The notes under the pieces are model-generated. The model was not told where the DNA came from. It saw nothing but the letters and a program-made list of their open reading frames with translations, and made no database searches. A stretch of DNA of 64,000 nucleotides. Origin: Saccostrea echinata (Eukaryota). Below, one piece after another: positions 31,725 through 60,770 of the stretch; positions within the stretch are counted from its first letter, which is position 1; the number at the start of each line of letters is the position of its first letter. Made by a program: the position numbers and the translations under genes. The stretch lies in NCBI RefSeq assembly GCF_033153115.1, contig NW_026889794.1, positions 4,154,001 to 4,218,000 of the forward strand. Reading direction: 5' to 3'.

Positions 31725-33991
31725 TCAGAATATTTTAATCTTTTCCTTTTTTATATTTTTATCAGCAACCTTCGGAAGCGAAGGCTTTACGTCTTTTTTC
31801 ACGACTTTCCTGAATTCAATTGTCAATGGAGAAGCATGTGCAGAGTCTGTCGATGATGATTTTGATGAGGATGACAATGATGATGGCGATGATAAAGGTA
31901 ATGATGTCTCTTTAGAGGACGGACTTGTTGGTTTAATCTTTGTTCGTGTTACATTAAGCTTTGGTGCTTTTGCTGCATTTTTAGTCGATGATTTCGACAC
32001 CGCATGTTCTGACTTTGAATTCGATTGAACTTTCTTCCGAGCAACTTTTCCCCTTTTAGAAAGTAAGTTTGATGATTGTGATAAATGACTGAAGTCCTTT
32101 GAGGTTTTACTTATTAACGAAGAGGAACGAGAACGCGGCCATTTTGGATGAGGAGGAAGGGCTAATTTTAAGACCTTTTGCTTAACGATGTGTAAGGTAG
32201 TTGTGACTAAAGGTGCTGACTTTGTTGGAGATGGATTATTCATATCTCCTTTCTGATCTGGAGTGAATGATGATACTGTTGATGAAACAGTATTTGTTGT
32301 AGTGATAAGAAGAGGAGAAAAAGTAGTTGAGTCTAATGTTGAGATATTTTGCTTTGCAATTAGAACTTCACTCTCAGACGAACGATTACTAGCATCATAC
32401 AAAGGGAGACTGACATTAGAAGTATGCACTGAAGAGTTTCTCTCATCAAGTGGTAGAGGTTCCTCTGAAGAGACTTGTTTGACAGATTTTTTATTCATGA
32501 TAATGGCAATGGCCGATTCCAGCTCGCTGATGGATTGGAAGAGATCGACAACGTCACTTGAATCTGTTGTATTCTCCGTAGAAGGAGTGGTGATCTCTAA
32601 GACATTTTGACCATTCTGAGGAACCGCCGCAGTGGTTGACTCAGGAAGAAGAGGAGGAAGTGTGGGAAGATCAGGATAATCATAATCCGTGTGACCCAAC
32701 AAGAAATTTTCTTTGTTCAATAACGATATAAGTCTGGATTGAAGGCTGTTTTCAATGTTCAGTAATTTAATCAGAAGAGCTGACTTTGAAGAATTTTTTA
32801 GCACGTCACTCTCTGATGTAAGATTCCCATTCCTGGAAGTGTTGGCTGATGCATAAGAATTATCGTGAGTGTAATTGTCTAGGATTTCAGACTTAGTATA
32901 TGTTGTATCTTTGAGAAAGGAAATGATATTGGTTTGTACAGAATTCTCAGTTTGAAGCAATGATATTAATTTCTTCTGTGAGGATAGTTTACCAATATCA
33001 GTTTCGTTTAATTCTGTCGTGTTTTCATGCGTTATATTCACACCATTGAAGATGGAATCATTCGAAAGAGTCTTTATGGCAGAGTCAATAATGGTTAAAG
33101 AAGAAGGAAGCACTAAAGGAACTACAGCAGCTGCTTCCGGTTCCGGGACGCTTTTTCTCGGAGTATGTAAAAATTTGGGAAGCGGAAGAAGCATTTTAGT
33201 TTGTTTTTTCCTCGTTTTTGTATCATTTTTGATAGCTGATTTCAGATTGTCTTCGAACGTTTTCTTAGTTTCATCCATGTCTTTATCAAGTAATGAGATA
33301 ATTGCGGAGTTAAGTATATTATTCTCAATCGTTTCATTATACAACGAATTCGTTTCATTGAAAGCCACAGTGCTAGTATTTGAAGCTTGATTTGAGGAAT
33401 TATTCAGATCAAGAAGATTAAATATAGTCTGAAGATCTGCTCCTTTGGGCTCGAAGGTATCATTTAATTGCTCCCCAGGTGGTAAAAATATAGACAAATC
33501 AATTTTAGGTGCAAGCTTTGGTGTCTTAAGAAGTGAATTTCCGGGATAGAGAGAAGTTTTTATTTTAGGAACAATAGTGGATGTACTAGGTGTTTGAGGA
33601 TTTGTCATTTTGTTGGGTTTTGGATCGACAGGAGCTATGGATGTAGATTCAGTTCGTGTCGTAGACGTCTGTTGTGGGGCTTTTGTTGCATACTCAAAGG
33701 GGATCTTTATAGAATCCTCAAGTTGTGTACTGCCTGTTAACTTTCTTTCCTTAGGAGAAACAGTCGTTGCTGTCTTCTTGTCTTCGGATTTTAAACCTTT
33801 TGTGCTTAGCATCTTTTTGAACGTTGTCGGTTTAGACGACTCCACATCTTTGGTAGTGACTGAAGGACCAAGTACACACTTGCATTCTGACAAATCAACA
33901 CGCTCATTGTTAGCACAATTAACCTTGACCCAACCGAAGAAACGTATGTGCTTTTCAAGTGCTGAGTTCCCAGCAGGTCGACACGTTGTAC
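31725..33991 (-). CDS. Gene A exon 5 (Cys module + low-complexity tail)
   Basis: 2267 nt open frame after a tttcag acceptor; corresponds to the 759 aa ORF in the track. Confidence 0.9.
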
Positions 33992-59000: not shown

Positions 59001-60770
59001 ACATACATACTTACATAGATGTAGTTAAATAAAGAATCAAAACAAAAAATGGGGGTTAATATGCTTTTATTGGCGCTACGGTGCATTGAATATGACCTCT
59101 TTGCATTGTAATTGTGTCTTACACATAAATCATCTTTTTTGTCTTATTCTATCTTGATTTACACATTAATTATGACAAGAAAAAGTTTCACATTACTTTG
59201 CATAATTATTATTTTTTTGACCTTTTTGCACTCAGGATTAATTTTGCTGGCATGAAAAAATAAACAAGCAATAAAATAATCCACAGTATTGATATTTTAC
59301 TTAATTTAAGCAGAATGGTCAAAGTTATCATATATTCAGAAAAGAAAATTGAAAGTAGGACTCTATGATGAAATAAAAAGTTTAAAAAAATTCCTGAACA
59401 TTCACAATATATTTTGCTATATTTGTCACAATATAATGATAGATTCCATAAAAGTTAATTGAATACTGTAGAATCAAATAACTTTTATGGAATCTATCAT
59501 TATATTGTGACAAATATAGCTTATTATTTTTATTATTAAAAATTTTATGCAGCAATGACTGAAATTCATGAAAATTTTGCTTCGCTTGTAAATACCAAAA
59601 ACTTTCACGCGAAAATAAGGTTCATGAAAATTAAGTGATCTACATTAGACATTGCCTTGTAAAAAAAAAAAAAAAAAAAAAAAACCCCTTCCCCCTGAAA
59701 ATTCAGTTCCTCACCTCATGCTTTTTGTATGGAATTCAATCGTGGGTTTTTAATATAGTAAATTGGCAATGTACAATCCAAATTCATTGTAAGAACTAAA
59801 AAAAATGATGCAGAATGTTGGAAATAGAGGCTCAGACAAAATTTGTATCGAACCTCCTTAATTTATAATTGACCATATTACCTTTTAACAGAGAGGAAAA
59901 AGCAAAGAATATGATTTAAAATCGCTCTGCACTCATACTGAGTCTATGGCAATGTTTCATACGCGGAAAAAATCCAATAAACAATTGTTAGCCTAGAGAG
60001 TTGAACATTTTGACAGATCCTTAACATTTAAAGTGTGGATGTTTCATTCTGTTTTTCATAAATTATGGATAATTTACCATAATAACATGTACCTACATGC
60101 ATGAATTTGTTGCATTTATATGATTTTTTAAATAACATTTTGCTTTTTAATACAGAACAATTACCACTTAATTAGTTGTCTCAATTCACCTTTCTTATGT
60201 TTATTAAATTAAATTAACTTTTGGTTTTTGAGGACGTTATGAAAGGAAAAGAATTTGAAAGTTCCATTTCAGAATAGTTTGTAATAAACTAACTTTCTTA
60301 CATAGGTCTTTTAAAGTTATTAATATTGTTTAAGTGTTATGGATATTTACAATTTTCTTGATGATAAATTAAAAAAAAAATCTGGCGATTACTAGTCGTC
60401 ATTGTTTATTAATCTAAAATGAATTAATTAAAAAGAAATTATGTTAAAATGTTGACTTTAACTGAAAAATCATGGTTATAACAAAAGGGAGTGGAACAAT
60501 TAGTTAGCAAATAAGGTAGATTAGAATAAGGAGATACATGTATAAGTTGTTCCTAATAAAAGTAACAATTATCTATTTGTTTTCTTGCAACCATTGTGAT
60601 GGCTGAATAATCATTTTTTCAATACTCATTTCTTGCTTTGTTCAGAATCTTGTGAGATATCTGGTAAGACGAGTTTCAATTAAATAATTACCTTGATTGG
60701 GATATATCTGCAGTGTGCAGTACTGCAAAACTGTCATTAAAATAAGAAGAACGGACAACGTGTAGCTCAT
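51091..60770 (-). CDS. Gene B: Pif-like shell matrix protein (signal peptide, VWA, 3 Cys-rich chitin-binding-type modules, laminin-G split by RRKR + acidic insert), about 1272 aa, 11 coding exons
   Basis: Exons 60692-60770, 57942-58472, 57603-57710, 57261-57455, 56847-57038, 56449-56625, 55518-55710, 53050-55042, 52787-52883, 52157-52236, 51091-51264; total 3819 nt in frame, all GT/AG. The domain order is that of the Pif/BMSP family. Confidence 0.92.
52157..52236 (-). CDS. Gene B exon 10 (LamG C-terminal strands)
   Basis: [26 protein letters not shown] (IG...FxGxxD motif). Confidence 0.9.
52787..52883 (-). CDS. Gene B exon 9 (LamG resumes)
   Basis: [32 protein letters not shown], in a different frame from the track ORF. 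Confidence 0.88.
52921..53005. repeat. (TA)n microsatellite in gene B intron 8
   Basis: Direct reading. Confidence 0.95.
53050..55042 (-). CDS. Gene B exon 8 (LamG middle, RRKR site, acidic insert)
   Basis: YLADEEDEG...ALISNGNC...PSISI...RRKR followed by a D/E/N-rich region; donor gtaaga after EKISEE. Confidence 0.9.
53690..54105 (-). repeat. Coding 33-bp (11 aa) degenerate tandem repeat, EPDDxxSNNxx, about 13 copies
   Basis: [75 protein letters not shown]... Confidence 0.85.
55518..55710 (-). CDS. Gene B exon 7 (laminin-G N-terminal part)
   Basis: [18 protein letters not shown]...[16 protein letters not shown]...TVVIKL. Confidence 0.92.
55879..56176 (+). mobile_element. Full-length tRNA-derived SINE in a gene B intron
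   Basis: A box tggcccagtagttagagc, B box gggttcgaaatccc, Deu/Nin-like core, (aac)n tail, 12-bp TSD cttgtttcagaa / cttatttcagaa. Confidence 0.88.
56449..56625 (-). CDS. Gene B exon 6 (Cys module 3)
   Basis: [41 protein letters not shown]. Confidence 0.9.
56847..57038 (-). CDS. Gene B exon 5 (Cys module 2)
   Basis: PCKNK...[41 protein letters not shown]; this frame is not shown in the ORF track. Confidence 0.9.
57261..57455 (-). CDS. Gene B exon 4 (chitin-binding type-2-like module 1)
   Basis: [13 protein letters not shown]...FAMC...[16 protein letters not shown]. Confidence 0.9.
57603..57710 (-). CDS. Gene B exon 3 (Pro/acidic linker)
   Basis: [35 protein letters not shown]; phase 1/1; the donor gtgaga is my best guess. 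Confidence 0.7.
57942..58472 (-). CDS. Gene B exon 2 (VWA domain)
   Basis: [13 protein letters not shown]...TRLGVVTYG...VPQVAVLL...IRVISIGIG...QYICK. Confidence 0.93.
59416..59520. repeat. Perfect 42-bp inverted repeat, 21-nt spacer
   Basis: gctatatttgtcacaatataatgatagattccataaaagtta / taacttttatggaatctatcattatattgtgacaaatatagc. Confidence 0.95.
60692..60770 (-). CDS. Gene B exon 1 (signal peptide)
   Basis: [26 protein letters not shown]; the ATG directly follows a ttacag acceptor; gtaatt donor, phase 1. Confidence 0.8.

What the first reader, a model, noticed from the sequence alone, without database searches (positions are those of the whole stretch)
31725..60770. Tandem Pif paralogues with opposite-charge low-complexity regions: a possible two-component shell-matrix coacervate system
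Seen: two co-oriented secreted VWA genes 13.6 kb apart. Gene B carries a ~590 aa D/E/N-rich insert. Gene A ends in ~155 aa dominated by K/R/S (HIVKQKVLK...KKEKIKIF). Established: pearl-oyster Pif is cut into Pif97 (VWA + chitin-binding) and Pif80, which holds both Asp and Lys/Arg in one chain and binds CaCO3. Inference: here the polyanion and polycation functions may be divided between two neighbouring genes whose products co-assemble on chitin.
Basis: partly seen in the sequence, partly recalled or inferred. Interest (0 to 1): 0.72.

Follow-up and report, generated by a model that had tools for sequence, protein, structure and literature searches.

The report
Oyster Pif and basic shell-protein neighbour
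Two neighbouring oyster genes encode the ordinary counterpart of the pearl-oyster shell protein Pif and a much-altered, likely distant relative with a positively charged tail, whose probable orthologue was found in another oyster's chalky shell layer; nothing found shows that the two proteins pair up.

Summary
Gene B (11 exons, 1272 aa) has a 589-aa acidic stretch (net -95) after an RRKR site. Gene A (5 exons, 1003 aa) lies 13,643 bp downstream and ends in a 155-aa basic tail (net +27), kept in all 8 oyster sequences checked.

B is the oyster Pif orthologue. A is not a recent Pif duplicate: it has no BLASTP match to B, lacks the laminin-G domain and two of three chitin-binding-like modules, and an A+oyster-Pif clade is rejected (AU p 0.04, 0.015). 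Both VWA trees place A on a long branch inside the Pif/BMSP family, beside PifN, with unstable support.

In published Crassostrea nippona tables, A's probable orthologue is a chalky-layer shell protein. The next gene number is Pif, which was not found in any shell layer. The published C. gigas 'Pif' model likely fuses both genes.

The split-charge coacervate idea is untested and unlikely (about 0.1). Lys/Arg-rich Pif80 is a Pinctada trait, Pif80 coacervates with Ca2+ alone, the charges are mismatched 3:1, and the tail is among A's least conserved parts. Verdict: B is known; A is an overlooked variant.

The parts
60692..60770 (-). Gene B exon 1, signal peptide (by eye)
   Evidence: RNA-contig cover in this bin in X1 and X3 fits a 79-nt exon (inferred); RefSeq model P0005 uses another first exon without a signal peptide
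57942..58472 (-). Gene B exon 2, VWA domain (Pif subfamily; no canonical MIDAS Asp)
   Evidence: Pfam 4e-15; PfuPif-VWA BLASTP E 2e-33; clade with PfuPif 100/98; motif
57603..57710 (-). Gene B exon 3, linker
56449..57455 (-). Gene B exons 4-6 (57455-57261, 57038-56847, 56625-56449): three chitin-binding-like Cys modules CB1-CB3
   Evidence: Pif-derived profiles: CB1 60 and CB3 51 bits in P0005; CB2 50 bits in the S. cucullata orthologue P0006
55518..55710 (-). Gene B exon 7, N-terminal part of the split laminin-G domain
   Evidence: 88 bits
53050..55042 (-). Gene B exon 8, 662-aa D/N/E-rich insert inside laminin-G; includes a 33-bp tandem repeat at 53896-54099
54817..54828 (-). RRKR dibasic site (aa 564-567), predicted furin-type cut at the place of Pif's RMKR; also in S. 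cucullata
   Evidence: cleavage inferred
51091..52883 (-). Gene B exons 9-11 (52883-52787, 52236-52157, 51264-51091): C-terminal laminin-G part and Pif-type C-terminus
   Evidence: 68 bits; two of these introns joined in 3 of 4 runs
37348..37447 (-). Gene A exon 1, signal peptide (by eye); an untranslated exon lies near 38257
34495..37005 (-). Gene A exons 2-3 (37005-36869, 34915-34495): divergent VWA split by a phase-0 intron
   Evidence: Pfam 8e-14; joints; trees
34093..34179 (-). Gene A exon 4, linker
33876..33980 (-). Gene A single degenerate CB3-like 4-Cys module (aa 253-287)
   Evidence: 3.8-10.9 bits in 6 full-length orthologues, against a decoy maximum of 4.1 in 1200; weak
32496..33341 (-). 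Gene A conserved Leu/Ile-rich, predicted amphipathic helical islands (aa 466-747) inside a S/T/N-rich mucin-like region
   Evidence: 62-85% identity Saccostrea vs Crassostrea; hydrophobic moment; local helices in a low-confidence model
31725..32192 (-). Gene A basic Ser/Lys tail (aa 849-1003) and stop codon

Best explanation
Gene B is the oyster orthologue of pearl-oyster Pif and gene A is likely an old, fast-evolving Pif/BMSP-family offshoot without the laminin-G domain, and the two likely act as separate mantle-secreted shell-matrix proteins rather than as a charge-matched pair. B would be cut at RRKR into a VWA + chitin-binding scaffold half and an acidic half (net -84) that binds Ca2+ by itself. 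The architecture is shown; cleavage and Ca binding are inferred from Pif. A would be a glycosylated, mucin-like framework protein of calcitic (chalky) shell. Its VWA would dock other matrix proteins, its conserved amphipathic helices would self-associate, and its basic tail would cling non-specifically to polyanions. Shell location rests on a probable orthologue; the roles of A's parts are inferred. A most likely arose from a PifN- or Pif-like ancestor by losing the CB1 and CB2 exons and extending the CB3 exon into a new tail (inferred from phase-1 introns).
For: B: PfuPif is the best non-Saccostrea hit among 378 (E 2.5e-85). All six modules are present, CB2 scored in the S. cucullata orthologue. 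RRKR is conserved, and B groups with PfuPif 100/98 in both trees. A differs from B: best pairwise BLASTP E 0.91; A is absent from the 38 own-genome matches to B's VWA and B from the 13 matches to A's; no CB1, CB2 or laminin-G; AU rejects A+oyster Pif (p 0.040, 0.015). A sits inside the Pif/BMSP clade at 100/100 and 100/99, with the PifN pair at 99/98 and 72/71; one of that pair, P0095, carries both published McoPifN repeats. C. nippona CNI_019628 (941 aa, 102.7 kDa, pI 9.37, SP+, Pfam VWA 40-210, as in P0003/P0004) is a chalky-layer protein, edge>centre logFC 1.93. CNI_019627 'protein PIF' has no shell-layer entry and is edge>centre only in repair. Pif80 forms Ca2+-induced simple coacervates. 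A's mid islands are 62-85% conserved, its tail 40%.
Against: A fails the published BLASTP screen for the Pif/BMSP family (E 8e-7 to 8e-5 against a cut of 1e-10). AU does not reject A outside the family (p 0.27) or A as sister to the whole Pif subfamily (p 0.29, 0.45). A PifN profile ranks A only 44th-59th. The C. nippona orthologies rest on size, pI, domain coordinates and gene number; I saw no sequence. Non-detection of B in a proteome is weak evidence, and that model may be incomplete (no SP called). Both genes are mantle-edge-biased, which leaves room for contact. CGI_10004086 is listed in the adult C. gigas shell, which could reflect B peptides.
Confidence: 0.6

Rival explanations
1. One reading: Pif80's anion and cation functions were divided between tandem paralogues, and A's tail forms a complex coacervate with B's acidic fragment on chitin.
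For: Opposite net charge per residue (+0.17, -0.16). The tail charge is conserved and unusual in the family. Adjacency is probably conserved. Both probable orthologues are mantle-edge-biased. An ancient duplication from the Pif stem is not rejected.
Against: A has no laminin-G insert, so its tail is not a Pif80 derivative. Lys/Arg-rich inserts are reported for Pinctada and are low in unionids. About 3 tails are needed per B fragment; whole A is near neutral (+0.027 per residue) and the tail has 43 S/T open to modification. Both regions are far less charged than Pif80 (0.28-0.32 vs 0.62). Even Pif80 coacervates dissolve in salt. B's probable orthologue is not listed in the chalky layer that holds A's. 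A's chitin-binding module is degenerate.
Confidence: 0.1
2. A and B are a co-regulated pair that bind through folded domains (a VWA binding B's C-terminal fragment, as Pif97's VWA binds Pif80), with charge playing a minor part.
For: A recombinant PfuPif VWA pulled down Pif80. Neighbourhood and mantle-edge bias.
Against: A's VWA is very divergent from Pif's. The two genes are differentially expressed in different conditions, and only A is listed in the shell.
Confidence: 0.13
3. A is not a Pif/BMSP-family gene but an independent VWA-mucin recruited to oyster shell, and its position next to Pif is incidental.
For: Fails the 1e-10 screen; AU p 0.27 for A with the outgroup; long branch of 2-3 substitutions per site; VWA-CB proteins are reported to have arisen at least twice.
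Against: Both best trees nest A in the family. A's best BLASTP match among the non-A proteins held is the PifN-like P0130 (7e-20). Its Cys module scores above decoys with the Pif CB3 profile.
Confidence: 0.17

Closest known systems
Pinctada fucata Pif (C7G0B5; Pif97 + Pif80) and C. gigas CgiPif (CGI_10004086)
   Same: Gene B: SP-VWA-3 CB-like-split laminin-G, a dibasic site inside the insert, similar C-terminus, same VWA clade.
   Different: B's C-fragment is a D/E/N polyanion (K+R 10%, net -84); Pif80 is a balanced polyampholyte (K+R 30%, net -14). The published CgiPif model is 1504 aa with a second VWA at 849-960, likely gene A fused on.
PifN subfamily (McoPifN = AKS48157/P0095; PfuPifN)
   Same: Gene A's VWA falls with it in both best trees (99/98; 72/71). 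Both have long Thr/Ser-rich regions. No other S. echinata VWA tested joins PifN, and no C. gigas PifN is listed in Table S5.
   Different: PifN is VWA-long linker-3 CB-laminin-G and is found in nacre. A is VWA-short linker-one degenerate CB-715 aa tail with no laminin-G, and its probable orthologue is in chalky calcite.
Polycation/polyanion complex coacervates (sandcastle-worm cement, as cited in PMC5540247)
   Same: Oppositely charged secreted low-complexity regions.
   Different: Lower charge density here, 3:1 imbalance, and no co-localisation shown; Pif80 itself is reported as a simple Ca2+ coacervate.

Membership tests
Pif subfamily (gene B) | VWA with BLASTP E < 1e-10 to PfuPif VWA | tested here: met
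   E 1.9e-33 (database size set to 35,000 letters)
Pif subfamily (gene B) | VWA clade with PfuPif | tested here: met
   100/98 in both trees
Pif subfamily (gene B) | CB-like modules followed by split laminin-G with a low-complexity insert | tested here: met
Pif subfamily (gene B) | Dibasic processing site inside the insert | tested here: met
   RRKR in 2 of 2 Saccostrea proteins; actual cleavage not shown
Pif subfamily (gene B) | Presence in shell matrix and CaCO3 binding | tested here: inconclusive
   Probable C. nippona orthologue not in the shell list; CGI_10004086 in adult C. gigas shell but likely a fused model; binding not testable here
Pif subfamily (gene A) | Split laminin-G, three CB modules and dibasic site | tested here: not met
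   No LG-N, LG-C, CB1 or CB2; no R-x-K/R-R site in 4 of 4 proteins checked
Pif/BMSP family (gene A) | VWA BLASTP E < 1e-10 to PfuPif VWA | tested here: not met
   E 8e-7 to 8e-5 in 6 orthologues; this is a pre-screen and is biased against long branches
Pif/BMSP family (gene A) | VWA inside the Pif/BMSP clade | tested here: inconclusive
   Inside at 100/100 and 100/99, but AU p 0.27 for a place outside
Pif/BMSP family (gene A) | CBM14-like module after the VWA | tested here: inconclusive
   Weak CB3-like match, 3.8-10.9 bits vs decoy maximum 4.1; no Pfam CBM_14 hit
PifN subfamily (gene A) | VWA clade with PifN | tested here: inconclusive
   99/98 in tree 1, 72/71 in tree 2; sister to the Pif subfamily not rejected
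PifN subfamily (gene A) | Long Thr-rich linker between VWA and CB, then laminin-G | tested here: not met
   33-aa linker and no laminin-G
Two-component complex coacervate | Oppositely charged partners | tested here: met
   +0.17 / -0.16 per residue
Two-component complex coacervate | Both partners in the same matrix compartment | tested here: inconclusive
   Only A's probable orthologue is listed in C. nippona shell; both are mantle-edge-biased
Two-component complex coacervate | Phase separation on mixing | not testable with these tools
   Needs a bench assay

The most novel reading that the evidence does not exclude
Gene A is the 'missing' oyster PifN. After oysters left nacre behind, it shed laminin-G and two chitin-binding modules, grew a helical-island mucin region and a polycationic tail, and was redeployed to chalky calcite, where the tail condenses acidic matrix proteins, possibly including the cut acidic half of neighbouring Pif. 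It has been hidden because the standard C. gigas 'Pif' gene model fuses the two genes, so the evidence that oyster Pif is a shell protein may really be evidence for A.
Probability: 0.17. Interest if true: 0.68.

Novelty: new variant of a known kind. Interest (0 to 1): 0.42.

Why it matters
Oyster chalky calcite is a lineage-specific, porous shell material whose protein basis is open. A is a conserved, basic VWA protein, so far found only in oysters, and its probable orthologue is already in a chalky-layer proteome under the label 'mucin-5AC-like'. It is a concrete candidate for knock-down or localisation. If CGI_10004086 is a B+A fusion, published statements on 'C. gigas Pif' (shell presence, odd insert composition) need to be re-split between two genes. 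B by itself is an expected orthologue.

Tried and rejected
Recent tandem duplication of Pif within oysters: rejected. A's tail as a Pif80 derivative: rejected, no laminin-G.

CNI_002505 (same NR name as the C. gigas A record) as A's orthologue: rejected, because its neighbours are LSm2/EDF1/GGT1 and it has no Swiss-Prot match. CNI_013832 as B's orthologue: rejected, VWA at 582-755, PifS1-like.

AlphaFold2 model of A from 8 rows: mean pLDDT 28.5, not usable as a fold, so no fold search was run. ESM Atlas: generic VWA hits under 0.9 for A 30-295 and no usable hit for A 400-760. Complex prediction for a dimer of A's helical region: tool not available, no verdict.

RNA-run search: no holder on record as RNA, and tissue unknown, so contigs were used only for splice joints. 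A BLASTP self-comparison found no internal repeat in A 401-760. Charge patterning (SCD) of the A tail and B insert does not differ from shuffles (z 0.8, -1.2). Own-genome searches with PifN-type proteins found no clear canonical PifN (best 32-36% identity; exon-wise search, weak test).

Literature searches for six A/B record ids and five LOC1053251xx ids found no paper in main text. Searches of earlier scan findings gave nothing. The CGI_10004086 and CNI sequences were not in the supplement rows I saw.
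Full report
1. Observation. Six-frame reading and splice-site inspection gave two minus-strand genes, built with GT-AG introns throughout. Gene B: 60770-51091, 11 exons, 1272 aa, pI 4.49. Gene A: 37447-31725, 5 exons, 1003 aa, pI 9.31, 13,643 bp downstream of B. A equals database protein P0001, named as a Saccostrea echinata RefSeq product. B corresponds to P0005 'protein PIF-like', whose model lacks the signal-peptide exon, the CB2 exon and about 54 aa of the insert. 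Contigs from 4 coded runs of unknown tissue join all 4 coding introns of A, each in 3-4 runs, and 3 displayed introns of B. The acidic stretch after RRKR is 589 aa, net -95; A's last 155 aa are net +27. That tail charge is reached by 4 of 10,000 shuffles, recurs in 8 of 8 oyster sequences (+19 to +27) and exceeds all 28 Pif/BMSP-type comparators (max +15).

2. Gene B is Pif. Among 378 hits in 1.84 billion representatives, the best outside Saccostrea is P0023, Pinctada fucata Pif C7G0B5 (E 2.5e-85). Profiles seeded from Pif modules and trained without A find CB1, CB3 and both laminin-G parts in P0005, and CB2 as well in the S. cucullata orthologue P0006. RRKR lies in the laminin-G insert where Pif has RMKR. 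B groups with PfuPif at 100/98 in both VWA trees. Its C-fragment differs from Pif80: net -84, K+R 10%, charged fraction 0.33, against net -14, K+R 30% and 0.62. Shimizu et al. 2024 (PMC11291548; I read Methods, Results and Discussion, and rows of supplement 2) report Lys/Arg-rich inserts in Pinctada, low Lys/Arg in unionids and an intermediate state in Pteria. A basic-poor insert therefore need not mean a lost function.

3. Gene A is not a recent Pif copy. A and B share no significant BLASTP alignment (best E 0.91). A is not among 38 own-genome matches (102 candidates scored) to B's VWA, and B is not among 13 matches (25 scored) to A's VWA exon. PfuPif's VWA hits B at 2e-33 but six A orthologues at only 8e-7 to 8e-5, short of the published 1e-10 screen. 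A has no CB1, CB2 or laminin-G. It has one 4-Cys module that scores 3.8-10.9 bits with the CB3 profile (5 of 6 full-length orthologues above the decoy maximum of 4.1 in 1200).

Tree 1 (69 VWA rows) nests A, on a branch of 1.95, in the Pif/BMSP clade (100/100) with P0130 and P0095 (99/98; bootstrap not fully settled). P0095 is Mytilus coruscus AKS48157 and contains both repeats listed for McoPifN. Tree 2 (59 rows: 8 long or odd rows and 9 outgroup rows dropped, 7 own-genome rows added) keeps A in the family (100/99) and with PifN at only 72/71. AU tests reject A + oyster Pif (p 0.040, 0.015). They do not reject A outside the family (0.27) or A as sister to the whole Pif subfamily (0.29, 0.45). 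So A is probably an old family member, PifN being the best guess, but this is not established. A's exon order (SP | VWA | linker | phase-1 Cys module running on to the stop) is what B's layout would give after loss of two phase-1 CB exons and extension of the CB3 exon (inference). A orthologues were found only in oysters (4 hits among 265 candidates; 15 among 7,988; word-limited searches).

4. What is conserved in A. Between Saccostrea and Crassostrea the VWA is 79% identical, Leu/Ile-rich islands in the mucin-like middle 62-85%, and the basic tail only 40%. The islands have amphipathic helical moments and are helical in an otherwise unusable model (pLDDT 28.5). Mature A has 22 N-glycosylation sequons and 226 S/T, with net charge +0.027 per residue. 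The tail keeps its charge but not its sequence, which fits a non-specific polyanion-binding role.

5. Synteny and shell evidence. The S. cucullata A and B records have close accessions and the same 650,429-bp contig length (adjacency inferred). C. gigas CGI_10004086 ('CgiPif', 1504 aa) has VWA 9-151 and a CBM14-like hit at 305-326, against 9-151 and 306-327 in P0005, plus an unexplained partial second VWA at 849-960. I infer a model fusing B with A's exon 3; I could not see its sequence. It is listed in the adult C. gigas shell proteome (PMC6231486, supplement rows only) and as induced at metamorphosis (bioRxiv 2020.03.25.004614, passages).

In Bai et al. 2023 (PMC10543319; passages, two Results sections, supplement rows S10-S13 and S16), C. 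nippona CNI_019628 (941 aa, 102.7 kDa, pI 9.37, SP+, Pfam VWA 40-210, the same span as P0003/P0004) was detected in the chalky layer and is mantle edge>centre (logFC 1.93). The preceding number, CNI_019627 'protein PIF', occurs once, in the shell-repair list (edge>centre, logFC 3.57), with no shell layer. The sign convention is read from the table titles and the text. The orthology is inferred from these properties.

6. Mechanism. Shown: architecture, charges, orthology of B, splicing. From the literature: Pif is cut into Pif97 and Pif80, and Pif's VWA pulls down Pif80; recombinant Pif80 forms Ca2+-induced simple coacervates that salt breaks up (PMC5540247, passages). Inferred: B is processed at RRKR and its acidic half is neutralised by Ca2+; A is a separate glycosylated framework protein of calcitic shell whose tail binds polyanions generally (0.6). 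The specific complex-coacervate model needs about 3 tails per B fragment, a largely unmodified tail (43 S/T), stability at extrapallial salt and co-localisation, none of which is shown (0.1). Domain-mediated pairing (0.13) and an unrelated VWA-mucin (0.17) remain.

7. Novelty. B is a new member of a known kind. A is a laminin-G-less, basic variant. I found no paper discussing it: six record ids gave 0 papers, five LOC ids 0, and topical searches listed none on it. It appears only as a supplement row. Subscription papers (Suzuki 2009 and 2013, Zhang 2012) were not seen, and supplements beyond the rows searched may hold more. PMC7747718 and PMC5379566 were seen as passages and added no data on these genes. 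Interest 0.42.

Noticed in passing
window 20988-22241 (-): Single long exon of a TENT5/FAM46-type nucleotidyltransferase (Pfam NTP_transf_7, E 4e-160; the TENT5 name is recalled), the next gene downstream of A.
   Followed up: no
G000:C1 about 18.83-18.95 Mb (L005, L013-L017): A real tandem cluster of Pif/BMSP- and LamG3-type genes (VWA, CB1-3 and laminin-G exons); further members at C1 8.55, 10.5 and 10.77 Mb, C54 42.87 Mb and a multi-VWA BMSP-like gene at C56 6.94 Mb.
   Followed up: partly
window 60692-60770, 56847-57038, exon 8: RefSeq model P0005 lacks the signal-peptide exon, the CB2 exon and about 54 aa of the insert; RNA contigs cover the first two, and the S. cucullata model keeps CB2.
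   Followed up: partly
CGI_10004086 (PMC11291548 supplement): The published C. gigas Pif model has a second, partial VWA at 849-960 and is likely a fusion with the gene A orthologue.
   Followed up: partly
window 53896-54099; P0006: B's insert holds a 33-bp (11-aa) tandem repeat; the S. cucullata orthologue has in addition a long array of an 18-aa acidic repeat, so the insert turns over quickly.
   Followed up: no
window about 55880-56170: Very high-copy interspersed repeat in B intron 6 (summed contig depth 1,500-11,000).
   Followed up: no
window 29830-31042 and 41318-42128: 84-87-bp and 149-bp tandem repeats downstream of A and between the genes.
   Followed up: no
window 38852-39175, 45351-45590, 45870-46073: Short frames resembling reverse-transcriptase fragments of a retroelement (label recalled, not tested).
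   Followed up: no
window 55710-55716: RNA contigs of X1 and X3 carry 6 extra bases at B's exon 7 acceptor relative to the window, probably an allele or species difference.
   Followed up: no
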